A DNA stretch of 64,000 nt from Lophium mytilinum (Eukaryota): assembly GCA_010093605.1 (NCBI GenBank), contig MU004199.1:620001-684000 (forward strand). The letters run 5' to 3'. The position numbers and the translations under genes are program-made. This document shows, piece by piece, positions 5,267 to 38,508 of the stretch (positions are counted from its first letter, which is position 1; every line of letters starts with the position of its first letter). The notes beneath the pieces are model-generated. The model was not told the DNA's origin and searched no databases. It saw only the letters and a program-made list of their open reading frames with translations.

Positions 5267-5921
5267 GTCCTGAGCGTTGGTACGTTGAAGAGGCTGTTCC
5301 GAGGTTTAATGGGAGAGGGGTGTACGTTATGGGTAAGCAGCACAGCTTCTAGCCCAGCGAAAGCAACAGAACCAAGGCTCGGCATAAGAAGCAGAATCTA
5401 GGTACGAGTGACCGCAAATGGTTGAGAGCTGAACGGAAAAAGCGAAAACGAGTGGATTAGGAAGAATGAGTTAGTAGCCTCGTTCTTCTCACTCAGGAGT
5501 TTACGATCGTCTGTATCGCATGAGACGGGCTGTAAAGAGATCAACGCATGATCCAGATATCTTCATTTTCTCCTCCATTTGTTCATCCTTCAGCGACGTT
5601 GCAGATGTCATGGCTGTCTAGACTTGTGGGGCGAATCGGTAGCAAAATGGCTCTAGGCTTTGAACTACTCACCAAAATACAACTGCAATGAGCATCAAAG
5701 GCCAGCCTCTCTATAATCCGCATTCACTTGTCAGAACAAACACAAAACCGTAGACACAGAATGCAACCTGAGACCTGAAAATGCCGCTCTAGAACAATCA
5801 CGAACCTACATCATCAGATCCAGCCCGCCTGTAGTAGCAATCAAGCCCGGTTCCCCTCCCCTCTGATCCAAACTCACAATCCAATATATACAAGCCCAGC
5901 TCTTGATTCCACACCACCACT

Positions 5922-7266
5922 CTAATCCCTCTTGCCAATACCATACCCATACCCGTTATAACCACCTCCATTACTAACAGGCAACCCATAACCTCCTCCC
6001 CCACCCCCTCCATACGCCTTATCCCGCGCATACCGCCTCAGCCTTCGCGGCAGCTCCACACCCCTGAAATAGGCCACGCATATCGCCGCGCTCGCCCCAG
6101 CGCTGAGCAAGCAGTACACAATCGTGCTCGTGTACAAATGCCCGCCCATGCCTCGCCACCCGCTTGGCAAAACCGTCCCGGGGTACCAGCGTACGCTGAA
6201 TTGTAATGTCAACGGATCCCCAATCGACACCCTCGCTTGCCGCGTATGCGCGGACACCGAGTACGCAGCTGCCGCGTCAATGGTGCCCGGTGCGACGGCT
6301 TTCGGGGCCGCGTGCACGAGCAGGTTGAGCGCGTTGGAGATGTGGAGATGGGAGAGTTGGAGCGTGCCTGCGAGGGCCATGATGAGGGGCGTGTAGAGGG
6401 TGGATTGGGTGCCCATGGCGCCTTTCTTCGTGGATTCGTCGGAGACGGTGTATTCGTCCACGGGAGGAGAGGTGCCGGTGCCAGTGCCGGTGCCTGAGGA
6501 GGAGGGGAGGATGGACGAGGGAAGCGGCCGCGAGGGGATGCGGCAGGTTAGGGGCGCGTCGTTGTGGACGTAGAATTCGAGGAGGTGGAAGAAGGCGTCG
6601 TCTATGAACTCGATTGTGCAGTTGATTTCTGGGGTGGGTGGTTAGTAACTTTCGATGTCGATTCTGGGGTTCATACGAACCTTTTTCTATCCCGAAGTGC
6701 AGCTCGAGTGGTCGACCGGTTTCGTTGCAAGTTGGGAAGGGGATGTATTCCAGCTGGCCTTGCTCGTCTGTGATCTTGAGATACCCGTAATGTTAGCTTC
6801 TCTTCTTCATGATGCTCCAGGGCCCTCATTGCGCGAGTGCTACCCTCCAAAATGTGCTTTCCTCCGTAGCCCATATCCATCCAACCATTGCTTCCTCATC
6901 TTTCACAGCATTGAAAGACCTCCAGTATTATCCTTCCGCCCATATCCTCCTCGTCCATCGCCCTCCTGCCAACGAGGTATGAAAAAGTCTTACATGTTCA
7001 CCAGTATCTCTACACTCCGTTAGCAACAATCCACGCAAGGGGTGGTGGCTGGTGTCCACGTCGCGTGCAACACCACCACTGCCTCCCATAGCCTTCAAAA
7101 CCTACATCGTCCGATTCAGACAGCTAACAGGAATCGCCTCGCCAGCAACATAGCTCTTCTCTATCAGCTTCAGCGGCTCCTGGCTCGAGACCGCCGCAGC
7201 AAGCGCAATGTAGAACGTGTACGCGACGGTGAGGGCCAGCCGTGGGGAGTAGGGCGAGCGCGACAT
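5922..7266 (-). CDS. Conserved fungal type-I membrane protein of unknown function (multi-exon)
   Basis: ATG 7266 gives MSRSPYSPRLALTVAYTFYIALAAA; motifs IPVSCLNRT, YIPFPTCNETGRPLELHF, FFHLLEFYVHNDAPLTCR; C-terminal TM (STIVYCLLSAGASAAICVAYF) and a G/Y-rich tail ending GKRD. Confidence 0.8.
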
Positions 7267-29889: not shown

Positions 29890-31315
29890 GGGGGTGGGGT
29901 GGGTTGGCGTTTTTGGGGGGTGCATTTTAGCGATGGGATGGTTGGGATGGGATGGCTAAAAGACGTTTAATGATTGCGAGATGATTCCAAGGTTAATGAA
30001 GATGCTTTCAATCCAATAGTACACACTATTCCTGCGGTATGGTGAACTTTGTTGCTTTTATCATCTCAGAGGTATAACTAGTGTAGAGGACGGAAGAAGT
30101 CACTACGGTTGCTATCAATGGTATTAGGGACACATTGGTAGGTCCACTGATTTAGAAGGCTTAATATAGCATTTGGCAAAGAGAAGTAACGCGGGGTGCT
30201 TGGTTTGCACGCAAAGTGGGAATTGCGTATCCAAAGCAACCCAAAATAAGTGGTTAGTAGAGTCGAAAGAGAAAGAGTTAGGTCATCAACTTTGATAGAT
30301 GGTTTTGAGGTCGGCAGTTGGTATGTATCTTCATCGACGACTCGGGATTCTGTTTTCATCAACGGTCCAACAGTACGCAGAGGATATAGAAAGCAACGCG
30401 TGGTGATAGATTGAATGTTTAGGCAGCATCATGGTGTTTGCAGGAATATGGGACACGTTGGGTGGTTTTCCTAATTGGGATTCTTACCAGGAAAATCTCA
30501 AGCCCTGGGGAGGGTTTATAAATGAGTCATCACAGATGTGTCTACTACACGAAATAGAGTTCTCCCTAGATTTGGGATGCCCGGCTGTGGTCGATCGAGT
30601 ATAGTCACGTGCAGGACTCAGGCCGTCACACCGTCTTTGTATGGCTCTTAGAGATATTTTCATGGTAATCGTCGTCTTCGTCCATCGCCTCCCGTTCACT
30701 TCACCTAATAAGTTTTGAGTTGAATCGTTTAATGAAAGGATCGAGCGGTCTCACCTCTCTTCGACGATGATGCGGCTCTGTTGCTCGAGAGGCAGCAGTC
30801 AGGCTCTGGGCGCAGCACGACATACTGCAGACATCCGATTTGCATCCTTCATCATCAAAGGCATTTCACGTTTAGAATAAACCTACCTCGATTTCGGGTT
30901 TAACGGCGCGTTTATCATTTTCCAACATTCACGAACCTACTCAAACGCCGCCATCTATTTGTCCAAAGCAACGCTTTGACAACCTTTTCAATGATCCGGT
31001 CTACGGTCCGTTACATTGTGCCCAAATTATTCTACGCTAGACGTCGCCTCAAACGGCGGCATCACGCATGCGTTTCACCTAGTAGCACGGTACGAAACCG
31101 AAGACACTGCATTTTCATAGCTCTATACGTACGAACACAGGCATGTTCCAGTTCGCGCTTACAAGTCTTTGTCATCACGAGTGCCACATTTCCAGCCTCA
31201 CGAATCCACTCAAATACCGCCATTCGCCTGTTTAAAGCCCGCCATTACGCCCCTTTCAATTCGAAACGTTTCATCTTTAAATAATATGTGCTATGGATGC
31301 TAGTTGTCCTGTATG

Positions 31316-34300
31316 CGGGCGGTCTCCGGGCAGGCCCCTTAAAAAGGCCCCTTCGTCACGTGCTAATATAGCCGAATTTTGTAAACATTACAATACTTAC
31401 AGGCCTTACGGGCCTTATACGCAACACTAAAAAATTAATAACTCTATTAAATTTTGCGGGTTTCTTCTACTATATTATAGCCTTATTAAACACTATTAGA
31501 TTATTATTTTTGCGGGCGCGTTTTATTCCTAGGGCCTTATTAGGTCCCTAGAATAATGCCGGGCGCTTTAAATTTCTACCCGTTTTTCTACCTCTTTTTC
31601 TACCTCTTTTTCTACTACCTTTAGGACGCCCTCTCTTAGCCTTCCTAGGAGAACTAGGACTATTATCTAGAATAGGCTTAGCGTTAAGAATTAACTTATT
31701 TAAGCCTCTAATATTTATACACCTATAGTTATATTAAATAGGGTTCTAGGGCGGCAGCCCTATACTCTTAGTATACTAAGAAGCTAGCGGAGGCAGGATT
31801 AGCTATAAATTTAGGTATAGATCTCTATGCGGCGTGCCGTATATAATATTTTTATTATCTAAATTACTAAGAAATATATCCTTATTAATTTTAATATCCT
31901 TCTCTAGCACCCCTACTTCTTTCTTATACCTTTTAGCGTGCTCTATAGGCTTCTTCTCCTTCTTATTCTTATTACTACTACTCTTATTAACGTTGTTTAG
32001 CTCTTCTATAATACTAGCGTTAAATTTTATAAGGTTATATATTAGCTTAGTATTAATCTATAGAGTCCTTCTTCTTTTAGCCTAAGCCTCTTTTTATAAA
32101 TAAGCATTAGTAGAACGCTTAGTAACCTCCGCACTAGTTAAAGCCCGCTTATTTATCTGCCTGTATTGTTTTCTATATTATAGCTAAGAAAGCCTTAATA
32201 GTATAATAGCAAATTCCGTATTACTTTATAGTTAATAGAGCTTAGCCTTTCTCTCTAATTACTTTATAATCTTAGCCTCTAAGGCCTTAATTTATATAGT
32301 AATCTTAGCCGCGTTATTATCTAGAAGGCCTGCGCAGGCGTTAATAATATAAAGGGCTAAGTCTTACATTTTATTAAGCTTAAGAATATATTCTAATACT
32401 AAATTACTATAGAGAACTATACCCTCTATAAAATAAGGCTACTAATTCTCTTAAACCTTATAGGCTAATATAATATGCTAGCGGGGGTAAATATATTCTA
32501 AGGAAATAGGCGTGCCTATAAGGATTACACGCAGGAGGTAATACGCGCACGGTAGGCTAAATTAACGCGGGTTATTGCATATATAAAGAGACGGAGTCTA
32601 ATCCTTATTAGTATACCGCGTGCGCTCTAGAAAAGGCAAGGCGTAAGCTTTATAGAGTAAATTAAATACCTAGAGAAGCGTAAAGTAAGTAATCTTTCTA
32701 TTAATAGATGTAAAGAATATTTAGTAATAATTAAGAGTAATTTTTCTAGGTAGGGCGGTCTTATACTAATATTCTTTCTCTCTTAAATAGTATTCTAGAA
32801 TATTAATCTACTCTTTTAATTTTCTTACGCATCTATTAAGGCTTAGCTAGGGGTTTATAAAGTACTTTAAGGCTCTATTTATACCTTTAGAGTATATAGA
32901 GCTAGCAGCTCTAAAATTTAGAAGCTTTCTAGCAAGGTATAAATTAATAAAGTTAAATAAGAAAATAAGATAAGGCAGGCAGTATAACGGGTACGCCGGC
33001 GTAATATAATATATATAGGCCGTGCATAGGCTACCCTTATATATTTTTAGTTTATAGTAAGTATATAGGTAAAAATAGATAGGCTACAGGGCCTTATATA
33101 TAAGCTTGCATCTATCTATATATAAGATTAATATAGAAGGCGTACTAAGTATACCTCTATATACTAAATTCTTATAATATATCTATCTTTAACACACGCG
33201 GAGTATATAGATAATAAAAATAATAGAAAAATTTAAAATAATAATAAAAGAAGCTCTAAAACTTACTAGATATAGACTATTATTAAGTACTCTTCTTTCT
33301 TTATATACGTGTTCTAGAACTAGGGCTTATTAATTTTAAGAAGGTAATCTAAAACCGCTTAGTAATTTTTTTTAAGCTCTTCTTCTATCTTAGATTAAAT
33401 ATATAGCTAGAACGTAGCCTTAGCTACCTTTCTTTTAGGCTAGGTATAGCCCTTACCTTTATTAATACTATTATTAATACGCTTCTTTATTGCCTTTATA
33501 GCATGCCACTAATAAAGCTATAGAATAATACTAATAAACTTACCCGCTAAAAGGGTAGCCCTTAGCCCCTTTTTAAAGTTAGCTATAATTACCTTAGGCC
33601 CGCAGTTCTCTTACTATATATTTCTATTAGCTGCGGCTAATAGAAAGGCCTAGAAGGCCTTATCCTCCTCCTTTATAAGAGACTATATAGCTAGAAAGAA
33701 GCATCTAGTATTTATTACGCCTATAATAAGGCTAAGCTTTAGCTTTACCCTATTTATATTAAATATAGCGTCTATTTAATAATAGTAGTCTATAATAAAG
33801 CGCTTACTAAGATTCTTCTAGCCTAGTAGCTAGAAGACTACTTACTTAAGATTACGGGTAATATAGTGGCCGGTGCGCGGGTTAACTTTATAGAAGTAGT
33901 AAGAGTAATATTTAAAGCTATTTTTATAGAGAGATAGCTCTAAGGTAGAGAGGACGTTCTACTTTATATATATATTATATAGAAGAGTATATAGCTTATA
34001 AGCTATATTATAGTACTTTTTTTTAGATATTTTTAATTCCTGGAGCCCTAGTTAACGCGCTATAGTTGCATAAGTCTCTCCTATATAGCGTAGCTTAATA
34101 GTATAGTAATAGGCCTTAATAGCCTTAGGCTAGCAATCTTAGTAAGTAATATAGGCTATTAGATTAGGCATTATTAAGTGCGCGGCGTGTAGAACCGCAC
34201 TATATTTATAGATGTAATTAGAGTATATAACTATAGAGATCTAGGTATAGTTCTCTAGGTTTTTATATAGCTTCTTATAGGCTATATAAACTACCTATAA

Positions 34301-35583
34301 GTAGTTAAATTATAATACTATAGTATCCTCTCTCTACCTGCTACTAGGCCTCTTCTTCTTAAAGTCTATAAGCTTGTAATAGTTCTAAGTATTCTTACTA
34401 TAGTATTTATAAATAATATAAATATGCTGTTTTTTAGTATCTTTCTATAGTAAGCCGCTATTACGTACGCCTAAAAACCCCTTAAAAAAGAAGTAATTAA
34501 GGTACCTCTTAATAGCCTTATCTAGCGTCTTATACGCCTTACCGTTCTTTAGTTTATAGAGGTAGTAAGCCGGAATTTAATTAATTATCCCTTTAATAAT
34601 GGGCACTAATTAGAGGTGCAATTAGGGGCTTAGAACCTATAAAGGGTAAGGCGCGGGGGGCGTTAAAGGGTTAGAATTAAGCTAGGGCTTATTAGAGAGT
34701 ATATAGTAATATTCTAGGGCTATAGAAGTATAGTAGTAAGAAGTTATATATATATAATATTCTTAGTAAGTAGGTAATAACTTAATAGAATCTAAAAGTA
34801 ATAGAAACTTAGTAGAATACGCTGGTGGACTACTTTTAGTATAATTTATAGAGGCTAGAGTCTTAAAAGGTATAGAACTAGAGCTCTAGATACTTAGCTA
34901 GTATAAAAGTACACTCTATATAGGTGTAAGAGGTGTAAGAGGTATTAATTTAATTAGAATTAGCCTCTCTTTATAGCTAGGCGTATAGCTATAGGCCTAG
35001 CCGTTTATATAAGCATATAATTAAGTAAATTAAGTAGGCTATAGGCGTAAAGGCTGCATAAAATAGAAAGGCTATTAATAGGAAGACTATATATAGGCTA
35101 AGTATAGTAATAGAATAATATAAGATAGTAGAGAAGGCCTTTTAATTAAGAATTTATATAAAGGAAGAGGGCTTTCTTTATTATCTAATAATAGATTAAA
35201 TATTACATATATAGAGAATAGATAGAAAATAAAGATAGAAGAGAGAGAAGCTATTTAACATTAAAATTAATAAAATTAGTAAGAATTTCTATATTAAATA
35301 CACCTATATAGGCGCGTTAAGTGCGCAGTTCCCCGCTATTAATTAATAACGCATTCTTACTTCTATCTAAACCCTACGCGCTGGCTATAATGCGCGGACA
35401 CGTAGCTATTAATCTATCGCGTTAGATTCTAATTACAATAAATATTAGTAGAGTTGTAATTTTTTATATAGGGGGCTACTAACGTAGTAGTGTTAATTTT
35501 AAAGATTTTGTGTTGTTCATAAAATAAGCTAGCGAGCACGTGACGAAGGGGCCTTTTTGAGGGGCCTGCCCGGAGACCGCCCG
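31316..35583 (-). mobile_element. Full-length Mutator-like (MULE) DNA transposon, RIP-inactivated, ~50-bp TIRs, 9-bp TSD TCCTGTATG
   Basis: TIRs CGGGCGGTCTCCGGG(G)CAGGCCCCT.AAAAAGGCCCCTTCGTCACGTGCT at both ends. TSD at 31307-31315 and 35584-35592. Extreme TpA excess. Minus-strand relics: IDAIFNINRVKLKLSLIIGVIN (~33790-33710; cf. DATFNTN), PKVIIANFKKGL (~33597), L*LY*WHA (cf. LQLCxWH, ~33520), LPCAYY (SWIM-like, ~32565), AKRGRPK (~31640). Confidence 0.95.
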
Positions 35584-37301
35584 TCCTGTATGTTTGGACC
35601 TGGTTGCGCCGGTTGCGCGGCCCTACCACCTCATGACCATGAGAGACATTTGTATATCTGCAGAACGATGCCGATCCTGTGCATTGCTTCGCGATATTCT
35701 TTCCAAATCAAGTCATGAGTCTCGTTCTCTGGACAATCTTCTAAGGCTAGATGGCGGTATCCAGCTTGGCCGACCGTTACAGCTGCGAGAATTGTACGGC
35801 GAACTCAAGTTGGACATCTTCTGCCCCCAGTTACCAGGTGGGACTACCAACTGAATCTCTACCCTTGATACGAGAGTACAACCTTATTTAGAATACTCAT
35901 AAAAGCTGTTCTCTGCTAATCTGAGCTAGGCGCCGAGGGTGAGCCTATACATCCTAATCTCATTTCATACCCTCCAGTTGAGGCTCATGCTGGATCCCCA
36001 GCCTGCATAGCACTGGCCATATCATGGCTGAAGGACTGCTTGGAGAACCACCCGCTTTGTGATGCCGATGGACCTCTCACCATGCCGAAGCGAATTCTTC
36101 AAATAGAGTCTAGCGACATTCCACAAGCACCTTTTCGGATCCGACTCCTGAACACCAACGATAAATTCCAACGTTACGTCGCATTATCTCACTGCTGGGG
36201 ATTAGAACAGCCCCTCACCACCGAGGAGGCTACTGTCGATGCGTGGATGATGGACATTCCATGGGTTCAGCTACCTAAAACCTTCCAACATGCAATCGAA
36301 ATCACAGCTTCACTAGGCTGTTCGCACCTTTGGATTGACAGCTTATGCATAATTCAGGACTCCAGAACTGATTGGGAGGAACAATCGGCACAAATGGCAG
36401 CCATATATCAGCATGCTGTTGTCACAGTAGTAGCTGCGTCAGCTGCTAGTGACACGGAGGGCTTCCTTGGACCAAGACCCAAGCGTCTTAACGGGACCGT
36501 ATTGTTCCATCCCGAAGGTCCCAATATGTCACCCAGACCGGTTGCGTTCCGAGAGAGTTTATCCCATTACGACGATGATGTCGCTTCGATTGACCCCCTA
36601 GAGAAGCGGGCATGGGCGTTTCAAGAACGCCTGTTATCGGCCCGTGTGTTAGTTTTCTCCCTCCACGAGCTCCGTTGGGAATGCAACATTATGGGATGTT
36701 GTGAATGTCATGGTTATGATGAACATAGCGTGACATGGCACGTAGACACACCCCATCCGTACAGTCGCGCCATGTTCTCTCGGAAAAATCGACGTGATCT
36801 TTACTTGTTTTGGTATAACGAGATCATACCACGGTTTACGCGTGCGTCCCTCACCAAAGGAAACGATAAGCTCCCCGCGCTGTCGGGTGTCGTACAAGTT
36901 CTCAGTAACATTCTTGAAGATCAATATGTCGCTGGCGTCTGGTATGATGGATCTATAGAAGGCCTATTATGGATGGGCCGGAACAGGGGGAAACACCATA
37001 TAAGCGGCACCTACCGTGCTCCATCGTTCAGCTGGGCCTCGCTCGACTGTGAGGTTATCTACGATACGTATGGGGCATTTGCTAAAGAACTATTGTTCAC
37101 CGAAGTCGTCGAACTTCGATGTACTCCAGCAGGACTGGACCCATTCGGCGAAGTACTGGACGGCTATGTTATCCTGAACGGTCCCCTTGTTTCTGCTTGG
37201 CTACATTTCTCACCAGAGACCGAACTTGTGCCAAAACTTACGTTTCAACCAGCAGAAACAACAGCCTGTGATGAATACGTCAACTTCCAGCCTGATGTTA
37301 T

Positions 37302-37410
37302 GCTCGCGGTGTCGCCCCTTCCTCACAGCTTTCCATGGCCTATCACTGCTCACCCTACGCTCGCTGTGTCACCCCTTCATCCCAGCTTTCCATGGCCCGT
37401 CACTGTTCAC
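37302..37410 (+). repeat. 57-bp (19-aa) tandem duplication inside the HET C-terminal region
   Basis: LAVSPLPHSFPWPITAH / LAVSPLHPSFPWPVTVH. Confidence 0.9.
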
Positions 37411-37754
37411 CGAGCAGAGATTGATCCAGGAAGGATCGAGGGAAGTTATCGCTGTTTGCTAATGCGTTTGCGTACGGTTGATATAGGAGACTATTACTTA
37501 GTCCTTGGGGCGTCACTCCGAAAGCCGGGAGCGTTCGAACGGCTTGGAATGGTGGTTCTTAGTGCAGATAGGTTAAAGGCGGTAATTTGGCAAGGCTTCA
37601 AGGACGCCACGAAAGCACAATTGACTATCGTATGAAAGTAGGAGAAAGACACAGGCAACGATGATAGCAATTGGCGGCGCTCTACGCGCTTCTATGCAGT
37701 TTTTTCACTCTACCGCATTCCTGTGTCTGCTACTCTACATATTCGGCTATTCTC

Positions 37755-38508
37755 ACTTGCGTTCTGACAATGTGGACACCGATGGAAGACTCCCCTAGGG
37801 TATCTCAACTCTCCAGAAAGTGAATGTTAAGTTTTGCACGCTGTAAACGAGAGCTCGATCAAGCGACAAGCATATCTGCACGTATACCTTACAAGTCCAA
37901 TATCAGGGGCTATCGATGTGCGTTTTGACAATCTTTGTGTCAATGAAAGACCCTCTGGATAATCTAGACTTCCTGGACAATGAATGTCAAGGTTTATGCG
38001 ACGTGAACAAGAGCTCGATTAAATGACGAGCATGTCTACACTTAAACCTCAAACTTTCAATAACGAAGGCTATTAGTATGCGTTTTGACAGCGTAGACGC
38101 CGATAGTAGACTCCCCTGGGCCATCTCCACCCGCTTAGAAGTGAATGTTAAGAGTTGGACGCTGCAAATGAGAAACTCGATCAAATAACGAGCATGTCTG
38201 CACTTGTTTCTCACACGTTCAATATCAGGGGCTATGAATGTACCTTTTGACAATCTTTGTGGCCATAACAGACCCCCCTGGACTCTCTGAACTTCCTGTA
38301 TAATGAATATCAACCATTGCAAGCTGTAAATAAGAGCTCGATCAAGAGACAAGCATATCTGCACTTATTACTCAAACTTTTCAATATCGAAGGCTATAGT
38401 ATGCGTTTTGACATTGTATATATCAATGAAAGACCTCCTTGGACTTTCTAGATATCTAGGATAACGAAAGTCACGATTTGCAAGTTGTGAATGAGACCTT
38501 GATCAGCG
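37755..38508. repeat. Degenerate tandem array, ~4.7 units of ~161 bp
   Basis: Anchor (G)CGTTTTGACA-like at 37759, 37920, 38080, ~38242, 38403; recurring AGAGCTCGATCAA, AGCAT(A/G)TCT(G/A)CAC, CAATATC.GGGGCTAT. Confidence 0.9.

What the first reader, a model, noticed from the sequence alone, without database searches (positions are those of the whole stretch)
31293..37635. MULE insertion splits the N-terminal CxxC of an otherwise intact HET cell-death gene; precise excision would restore it
Seen: the 9-bp TSD TCCTGTATG lies within codons 5-8 of an ORF starting at ATG 31293. Deleting the element plus one TSD gives ATG GAT GCT AGT TGT CCT GTA TGT TTG GAC = MDASCPVCLDL..., in frame with ORF 35594 (...SAERCRSC...) and, via one intron, the full HET domain. 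The rest of the HET CDS has no stops and no obvious RIP, whereas the element is saturated with RIP. Known: HET domains are fungal non-self/cell-death effectors, and many such proteins begin with a CxxC...CxxC motif. Inference: this is a transposon-generated null or truncated allele (downstream in-frame ATGs at ~35632/35638 could yield a protein lacking the first CxxC), now beside a likely heterochromatic island, and may be polymorphic between strains.
Basis: partly seen in the sequence, partly recalled or inferred. Interest (0 to 1): 0.78.

Follow-up and report, generated by a model that had tools for sequence, protein, structure and literature searches.

The report
Transposon-split fungal cell-death gene, still transcribed
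A young, now dead jumping gene landed in the first codons of one of this fungus's many cell-death (HET) genes, yet the rest of the gene still seems to be transcribed from right beside the transposon's end, which would give a protein that lacks half of a conserved cysteine cap.

Summary
A 4,268-nt Mutator-like element (9-nt TSD, 49-nt TIRs, RIP-destroyed transposase) sits in codons 5-8 of a HET-domain gene whose empty-site frame is open for 657 codons. The split CxxC belongs to a conserved double-CxxC cap: 41 of 49 full-length homologues and 52 of 65 metagenomic loci have it (antisense control 0 of 65).

The silent-null reading is not supported. In one RNA-like run, contigs of depth about 110, spliced at the predicted intron, begin 13 nt beyond the right TIR. 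The native start has no cover, and no empty-site or splice-out joint is listed. Best reading: a transcript started at the element's end, like maize Mu outward-promoter alleles, encoding a 636-aa protein without two of four cap cysteines.

The intact frame needs no selection, because the insertion is young. Excision is unlikely: all three full copies are dead. Polymorphism is untested. The transcript start rests on contigs of one run.

The scan earlier noted, in this genome, another insertion into a HET gene and a Cys-capped HET gene, but no TIR-driven transcript. Verdict: a known kind of event with one testable twist.

The parts
31293..31315 (+). Stranded 5' end of the HET gene: native ATG, codons 1-7 and two bases of codon 8, holding the first CxxC. 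In the present allele this frame runs into the TIR and stops after 45 codons.
   Evidence: no RNA contig over 31137-31315 in run X2
31307..31315 (+). Left 9-nt target-site duplication
31316..35583 (-). Mutator-like element, 4,268 nt, RIP-mutated; transposase on the minus strand, so its promoter end faces the HET exon
31316..31364 (+). Left TIR core (49 nt)
33500..33780 (-). MULE transposase domain relic (approximate bounds), many stops
   Evidence: PF10551 E 3e-4, 21.6 bits, under the cut-off, read with X at stops; the sister copy on C10 is over the cut-off
35535..35583 (-). Right TIR core (49 nt); keeps a CACGTGAC box at 35537; candidate outward-facing promoter end
   Evidence: promoter role inferred
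35584..35592 (+). Right TSD; holds an out-of-frame ATG at 35590 (42-codon frame overlapping the HET starts)
35593..35837 (+). Rest of exon 1: second CxxC; in-frame ATGs at 35633 and 35639; RNA contig begins at 35597
35838..35929 (+). Intron, 92 nt, GT..AG; spliced (depth 71) and retained (depth 40) forms in run X2
35930..37635 (+). Exon 2: HET domain (PF06985) and C-terminal region, no stops, no RIP signal
35597..38002 (+). Stretch covered by deep contigs (110-115) of the RNA-like run X2; sense strand inferred from the GT..AG joint
30664..31136 (-). Low-depth (6-7) RNA upstream of the native start, with a 62-nt canonical minus-strand intron at 30825-30886; no long ORF

Best explanation
A Mutator-like DNA transposon inserted recently into codons 5-8 of a two-exon HET-domain gene of the common double-CxxC-capped type (shown). 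RIP then destroyed the element and its two sister copies without reaching the HET coding sequence (shown). The native promoter and ATG are cut off by 4.3 kb. The downstream 97% of the gene is still transcribed and spliced from a start at or just outside the right TIR (one RNA-like run, contigs only). The likeliest driver is the element's right end, which is also the upstream end of the minus-strand transposase, acting as an outward-facing promoter, as in maize Mu insertion alleles (inferred). Translation from ATG 35633 or 35639 would give a 636- or 634-aa protein with the whole HET domain but without two of the four cap cysteines, so a presumed zinc site is lost (inferred; metal binding untested). 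The strain lives with this transcript, so the product is most likely not constitutively toxic: a sensing-impaired or unstable hypomorph. The allele is best seen as a tolerated accident in a family of at least 150 HET loci, fixed in place because its transposase is dead.
For: Anatomy and open frame. MULE family and 9-nt TSDs. Youth: sister copies differ by 252-323 transitions but only 4-6 transversions, with no frameshifting indel. Cap: 41 of 49 full-length homologues and 52 of 65 metagenomic loci against 0 of 65 on the antisense strand. RNA: run X2 shows two canonical splice joints, contigs 35597-38002 at depth 110-115, and 0 other letters over 3,398 nt of listed single-copy pieces. Depth arithmetic leaves no cover at 31137-31315 and at most 276 depth-bases unexplained in 35480-35753. 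No joint from 31315 to 35593 is listed in any of the 4 runs. A second family member, the C3 MITE, has one end in a depth-140 contig that runs into the flank towards an F-box gene and stops about 370 nt inside the MITE. Precedent: 20 of 33 maize Mu alleles had Mu-initiated transcripts (10.1101/2023.06.05.543741).
Against: The RNA evidence is one run, labelled RNA only by a guess and kept as contigs, which by the tool's own warning cannot show a start, a strand or a level; a filter can drop records. The contig begins 13 nt outside the TIR, whereas the maize transcripts contain Mu sequence, so no element-gene chimeric RNA was seen. X2 does not show that its own DNA carries the insertion. About a third of the depth at the intron is unspliced, which would stop the frame after 73 codons, and an out-of-frame ATG sits in the TSD. 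No protein evidence. No true orthologue with an annotated N-terminus.
Confidence: 0.58

Rival explanations
1. The gene is transcribed from near 35597, but the element is not the promoter: an intragenic or cryptic start in exon 1 does the work, or run X2 comes from an empty-site culture whose 5' end is simply missing from the contigs.
For: The contig starts outside the TIR and no chimeric piece is listed. Assemblies often lack 5' ends (stated in 10.1101/2023.06.05.543741, section 7). X2 carries another organism and study code than the DNA runs.
Against: X2 has 0 other letters over 3,398 nt and shares the C3 MITE junction with the assembly. An empty-site RNA at depth 115 would have to lose its whole 5' UTR and the first 9 codons. 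An empty-versus-filled branch would start the contig near 35583, not 35597 (inference from the flanks).
Confidence: 0.22
2. Silent null allele: the RIP-mutated element nucleates heterochromatin and the cut-off gene is not expressed; the HET frame is a young pseudogene.
For: The element is saturated with RIP. The native start has no RNA cover. TE-broken immune-like genes are common in Podospora (PMC13449251, passages). Intactness is expected by chance.
Against: Deep, spliced contigs cover the gene from 35597 in run X2. No RIP signal in either flank.
Confidence: 0.12
3. Selected or reversible switch: the insertion was kept because it changes or removes a self/non-self specificity, and excision or an empty-site allele restores it, so both alleles segregate under balancing selection.
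For: HET genes act in allorecognition (PMC10197012, passages). MULEs with TSDs excise precisely in about 90% of events (PMC5225508, passages). The rest of the frame is intact.
Against: Only about 5 of 125 Podospora HET genes act in allorecognition (PMC10197012). All three full copies are dead and no helper with this TIR was found. No empty site in the runs laid. Intactness needs no selection.
Confidence: 0.08

Closest known systems
Maize Mutator insertion alleles with an outward-reading promoter (hcf106-mum1; 'Mu TSS' transcripts, 10.1101/2023.06.05.543741; abstract, section 7 and passages read)
   Same: A MULE in the 5' part of a gene; no read-through or splice-out; the gene 3' of the element still appears in RNA; the element is silenced or dead.
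   Different: Fungal host; the element is killed by RIP, not only silenced; the RNA contig here holds no element sequence; no upstream partial transcript was seen; the start is not mapped.
TE-disrupted, strain-polymorphic fungal NLR/allorecognition genes of Podospora (PMC13449251; passages read, supplements not read)
   Same: A cell-death gene family member broken by a TE insertion in a RIP-active genome.
   Different: This gene is a HET-only protein, not an NLR; polymorphism is not shown; the broken allele looks transcribed.
HET-domain proteins outside the NLRs (N. crassa TOL, PIN-C, HET-6; about 125 HET genes in P. anserina; PMC10197012, passages read)
   Same: PF06985 as the only recognised domain; member of a large, variable family (at least 152 matches here); weak TIR-like fold in a homologue's model.
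   Different: No function is known for this gene. Whether the named proteins carry the double-CxxC cap was not tested.
PdMLE1, a MITE acting as promoter in Penicillium digitatum (title seen only in the reference list of PMC12612061)
   Same: A TIR element supplying promoter activity to a fungal gene.
   Different: From recall, PdMLE1 lies upstream of an intact gene and raises its expression; here the element is inside the coding sequence, full-length and RIP-dead.

Membership tests
MULE (Mutator-like) DNA transposon | 8-11-nt TSD (PMC6446971) | tested here: met
   9-nt TSD here and in 6 sister elements; perfect in 6 of 7
MULE (Mutator-like) DNA transposon | Terminal inverted repeats (14-500 nt in PMC6446971) | tested here: met
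   49 nt at 98%, weaker to about 140 nt
MULE (Mutator-like) DNA transposon | MULE transposase domain PF10551 | tested here: met
   Window copy E 3e-4, under the cut-off; the 94% identical C10 copy 28.9 bits, over the cut-off
MULE (Mutator-like) DNA transposon | Autonomous: intact transposase frame | tested here: not met
   47, 51 and 44 stops per 700 codons in the three full copies
RIP-mutated repeat | Transition excess at CpA/TpG, high TpA | tested here: met
   Composite index +1.39; 252-323 transitions against 4-6 transversions between copies; CpA is the commonest context, 237 of 446
HET-domain protein (PF06985) | HET domain over the curated cut-off | tested here: met
   99.5 bits, cut-off 22.5
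HET-domain protein (PF06985) | TIR-like fold of the HET domain | tested here: inconclusive
   Model of homologue P0008 (pLDDT 84.9, pTM 0.89): best Z 5.8 (deoxyribosyltransferase, rmsd 4.0, 106 aligned), TIR domains Z 4.9 and 4.8 (rmsd 3.8 and 3.5, 96 and 102 aligned); all under Z 8
Double-CxxC-capped HET subfamily | Two CxxC motifs 20-59 residues apart, 118-193 residues before the HET core | tested here: met
   Empty-site reading: spacing 29, distance 141. The present allele keeps only the second motif in frame with the HET domain.
Double-CxxC-capped HET subfamily | The four cysteines bind zinc | not testable with these tools
Allorecognition (het/vic) gene | Allelic polymorphism that triggers incompatibility | not testable with these tools
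   No second allele seen
Mu-type outward-promoter allele | Transcript of the gene 3' of the element without read-through or splice-out | tested here: met
   Contigs 35597-38002; no joint across the element listed; one run only
Mu-type outward-promoter allele | Start site inside the element (chimeric 5' end) | tested here: inconclusive
   The contig begins 13 nt outside the TIR; contigs cannot show a start

The most novel reading that the evidence does not exclude
The TIR ends of this fungal MULE family are portable outward promoters that outlast RIP. Here one has turned a capped HET sensor-effector into a well-expressed cap-less form, a natural experiment on an undescribed double-CxxC regulatory domain. 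At other loci (the C3 MITE before an F-box gene, a C12 relic) the same ends supply 5' regions of deep transcripts, so dead transposons would be rewiring genes, immune genes among them, in this genome.
Probability: 0.2. Interest if true: 0.65.

Novelty: new member of a known kind. Interest (0 to 1): 0.38.

Why it matters
Most fungal HET-only genes have no known function, and their double-CxxC cap was not described in the papers that my searches returned. An allele that removes half of this cap but stays transcribed is a ready-made test of whether the cap restrains, activates or stabilises the cell-death domain. It would also extend the maize outward-promoter behaviour to a RIP-dead fungal MULE. 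It warns annotators too: the stored model of this gene (P0001, 517 aa) starts at residue 141 of the empty-site reading and misses exon 1. As one insertion in a family of at least 150 HET loci, the event itself is ordinary.

Tried and rejected
1. Empty-site allele: no joint across the element in 4 runs, of which X1 and X3 are one sample and X4 laid only one 187-nt piece. An exact 24-nt pattern from the left flank found 0 metagenome stretches. These blanks do not show absence.
2. No run is on record as RNA; X2 is a guess.
3. Close orthologue with an N-terminus: the best named hit (Mytilinidion resinicola, 64%) is a model that starts in exon 2. A search with the exon-1 remainder against longer proteins scored 0 of 79 candidates. 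The 80 metagenomic loci were only 28-38% identical.
4. Paralogue of exon 1 in the genome: only itself.
5. Helper transposase: the two MULE hits without stops inside the domain (C2, C10) gave no tblastn match to this element at E 0.01; the C2 element has other TIRs (132 nt) and a broken frame.
6. RIP leak as cause of the AT-rich flank of the C5 copy: rejected, that flank is itself repeated.
7. Fold of the cap: Foldseek had no match at E 0.001; the PDB sequence search gave nothing significant; Atlas hits were under 0.9; the wide search barely tested residues 1-113.
8. The profile score of the stranded residues (15.3 against 11.5 bits; null of 1,000 random heads: 99th percentile 11.9, maximum 16.8) is partly circular, because the profile was built from sequences chosen for two CxxC motifs.
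9. Targeting of immune genes by this family: not claimed; 2 of 7 complete insertions lie in HET or ankyrin/NLR-like frames, n is small and HET loci are many.
10. Earlier scan notes on a TIR-driven HET transcript: 0.
Full report
OBSERVATION. TCCTGTATG stands at 31307-31315 and at 35584-35592. Between the two lie 4,268 nt with TIRs at 31316-31364 and 35535-35583 (48 of 49 nt complementary, weaker to about 140 nt). The left TSD covers the last base of codon 5 to the second base of codon 8 of the frame from ATG 31293, which is the first ATG after an in-frame stop four codons upstream. Without the element, one TSD and a 92-nt GT..AG intron (35838-35929), the frame is open for 657 codons. Exon 2 holds a HET domain (E 2.8e-28). 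The RIP composite index is +1.39 in the element and -0.85 and -0.48 in the two coding parts; the four 300-nt bins on each side are all negative. The downstream in-frame ATGs are at 35633 and 35639.

THE ELEMENT. The assembly (43.4 Mb, 49 contigs) has two more full copies (94% and 92% identical), four MITEs of 619-659 nt with the same TIR, one single end and one relic. Six of the 7 complete elements have a perfect 9-nt TSD of their own; the C5 full copy differs at 3 of 9 places by RIP-type changes. The MULE domain PF10551 scores over its cut-off in the C10 copy and at E 3e-4, under the cut-off, on the minus strand of the window copy. The transposase therefore reads leftwards and its upstream end faces the HET exon. 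All three full copies are dead, with 47, 51 and 44 stops per 700 codons. The two MULE hits without stops in the domain belong to other elements. The copies differ by 252-323 transitions but only 4-6 transversions, and over 4,134 inner columns by two indels, both in multiples of three. They were nearly identical before RIP, so the insertion is young. With rough assumptions (non-RIP changes three times the transversions, 4% of them nonsense), a neutral 1,974-nt frame would expect 0.23 disabling hits and stay intact with probability about 0.8. Intactness is thus no evidence of selection.

THE SPLIT MOTIF IS REAL. Of 119 homologues listed besides the gene's own stored model (the best 120 of 1,821), 49 have at least 150 residues before the HET core; 67 are shorter models and 3 lacked the core motif, and these 70 were left out. 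Of the 49, 41 have two CxxC motifs (spacing 20-59, median 37; 118-193 residues before the core), 8 have one and none has none; in 20 of the 41 the first motif lies within the first 10 residues. The empty-site reading has its first motif at residue 5, spacing 29 and distance 141. Independently of gene models, 52 of 65 metagenomic HET loci with at least 700 nt upstream (15 of 80 dropped as too short) have a stop-free double CxxC on the sense strand, against 0 of 65 on the antisense strand. A true orthologue could not be checked: the closest named hit (Mytilinidion resinicola, 64%) is a model that begins in exon 2, and the exon-1 search found nothing. The nearest named relatives suggest a Dothideomycete near the Mytilinidiales (inference). 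A model of a full-length homologue (P0008, 80-sequence alignment, pLDDT 84.9, pTM 0.89) shows the cap as helices and a hairpin, with the first 20 residues at pLDDT 53-65. Its HET part resembles deoxyribosyltransferase and TIR folds only weakly (best Z 5.8). Zinc binding is inferred from the motif alone.

WHAT THE ALLELE DOES. Four runs were laid on 30000-38200. X1 and X3 are DNA of one sample, which may be the source; their contigs bridge both junctions in X1 and show the filled site. X4 laid one 187-nt piece. X2 is RNA only by a guess, but it shows two canonical splice joints: the predicted HET intron (depth 71 spliced, 40 retained) and a 62-nt minus-strand intron at 30825-30886. Its contigs cover 35597-38002 at depth 110-115, 30664-31136 at 6-7, and the inner element not at all. 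The listed single-copy pieces have 0 other letters over 3,398 nt. I checked the depth bins against the pieces. Five of the eight bins tested add up to within 8 depth-bases. The residues in the two bins around the left junction are both met by one record at 31328-31388 of depth 386, whose loose ends map to a TIR relic on C12. That leaves no cover at 31137-31315, where the native ATG lies. The eighth bin, 35480-35753, has 276 depth-bases unexplained, so nothing deep lies upstream of 35597. No joint from 31315 to 35593 is listed, so neither an empty site nor a splice-out was seen. The GT..AG joint shows that the RNA is mostly sense. The limits are plain: one run, contigs only, which cannot prove a start or a level; a filter may drop records; and the insertion state of X2's own DNA is not shown.

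MECHANISM. Shown: insertion, RIP of the element, an undamaged downstream frame, a conserved cap. Supported by one run: a spliced transcript whose edge is 13 nt outside the right TIR. Inferred: the element's right end drives it. MULE TIRs contain promoters (PMC6446971, passages), and in maize 20 of 33 Mu alleles gave transcripts that start in Mu and read through the gene (10.1101/2023.06.05.543741; abstract, section 7 and passages; its supplements are closed and may hold start positions). The window copy keeps a GTCACGTG box in both TIRs, which the C10 copy has lost at both ends; that this matches a bHLH site of the Cbf1 type is recalled, not tested. A second case points the same way: one end of the C3 MITE lies in a depth-140 contig that runs into the flank towards an F-box gene and stops about 370 nt inside the MITE; contig ends can also be graph branches. 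From ATG 35633 the product has 636 aa and lacks 21 residues, among them two of the four cap cysteines; ATG 35639 has the better context (A at -3). An out-of-frame ATG in the right TSD (42 codons) and intron retention (stop after 73 codons) could lower the yield. The HET domain alone can kill (PMC10197012, passages), and the strain evidently lives, so the truncated form is probably not constitutively active. I put 0.58 on this whole reading, 0.22 on a start that does not depend on the element, 0.12 on a silent null and 0.08 on a selected or reversible switch.

EXCISION AND POLYMORPHISM. Precise excision would restore the frame, and Muta1 excises precisely in about 90% of events when TSDs are present (PMC5225508, passages). 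But no live transposase of this family was found, so reversion would need a rare TSD-mediated deletion. Polymorphism is plausible by analogy with Podospora, where TE-broken NLR genes are intact in other strains (PMC13449251, passages; supplements not read), but it is untested here.

COMPARISON AND NOVELTY. The element is a MULE by TSD, TIR and domain, and non-autonomous now. The gene is a HET-only protein of a large family: 152 matches from 150 scored of 274 candidates. Only about 5 of 125 Podospora HET genes act in allorecognition (PMC10197012), so an incompatibility role should not be assumed. The allele works like a maize Mu outward-promoter allele; membership is open because no chimeric 5' end was seen. 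Searches of the open library for a fungal MULE that drives a truncated gene and for the CxxC cap of HET proteins returned no paper whose listing describes either; I saw those results as listings only, apart from PMC13449251 and PMC10197012, and most subscription papers are not held. PdMLE1 (title in a reference list) shows that TE promoters are known in fungi. The scan's earlier notes on this genome include another insertion into a HET gene and a six-cysteine-capped HET gene, both unchecked here.

VERDICT. Real, correctly described and mostly ordinary: a young, dead MULE in the start of one HET gene among many. The added value is that the broken allele looks expressed from the transposon's end, which makes the cap's role testable. 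Interest 0.38; new member of a known kind.

Noticed in passing
window 30664-31136, minus strand: Low-depth RNA with a canonical 62-nt intron (30825-30886) runs away from the native HET start; no long ORF. It may be divergent transcription from the orphaned promoter.
   Followed up: partly
L024:3188-3846 (G000 C8): A RIP-mutated 659-nt MITE of the same family sits inside the ankyrin repeats of a winged-helix/ankyrin (NLR-like) gene; the frame has a stop about 110 nt upstream of the insertion, perhaps RIP leak.
   Followed up: partly
L023:3589-4239 (G000 C3): An un-RIPped 651-nt MITE lies about 450 nt before an F-box-like gene; one end of it is in a depth-140 contig of run X2 that stops about 370 nt inside the MITE.
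   Followed up: partly
L022:2848-2939 (G000 C12): A degenerate TIR relic lies inside a contig of depth about 386 in run X2, between a DUF7730 gene and a mitochondrial calcium uniporter gene.
   Followed up: no
L025:3132 (G000 C15): A single TIR end with a RIP-mutated tail lies between another HET gene (about 1.3 kb away) and a WD40-repeat frame.
   Followed up: no
L003:144-1500 and 5766-6750 (G000 C5): The C5 full copy interrupts a long open frame without Pfam match; its other flank holds further RIP-mutated repeats, and its TSD copy on that side is mutated.
   Followed up: partly
L002:1501-1560 (G000 C10): The left TIR of the C10 copy has taken on the right-end sequence beyond position 49, a sign of conversion between the two TIRs. 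The copy lies about 180 nt after a multicopper oxidase frame.
   Followed up: no
window 37290-37410: The HET C-terminus has a short tandem duplication (two copies of about 22 residues) that is single in the Mytilinidion orthologue P0002.
   Followed up: no
window 37740-38400: Several degenerate direct repeats of about 180 nt follow the HET gene; both DNA runs show a joint going back 367 nt here.
   Followed up: no
L108:3871-6726 (G000 C2): A different MULE with 132-nt TIRs (98%), only lightly mutated, transposase broken by a few stops.
   Followed up: partly
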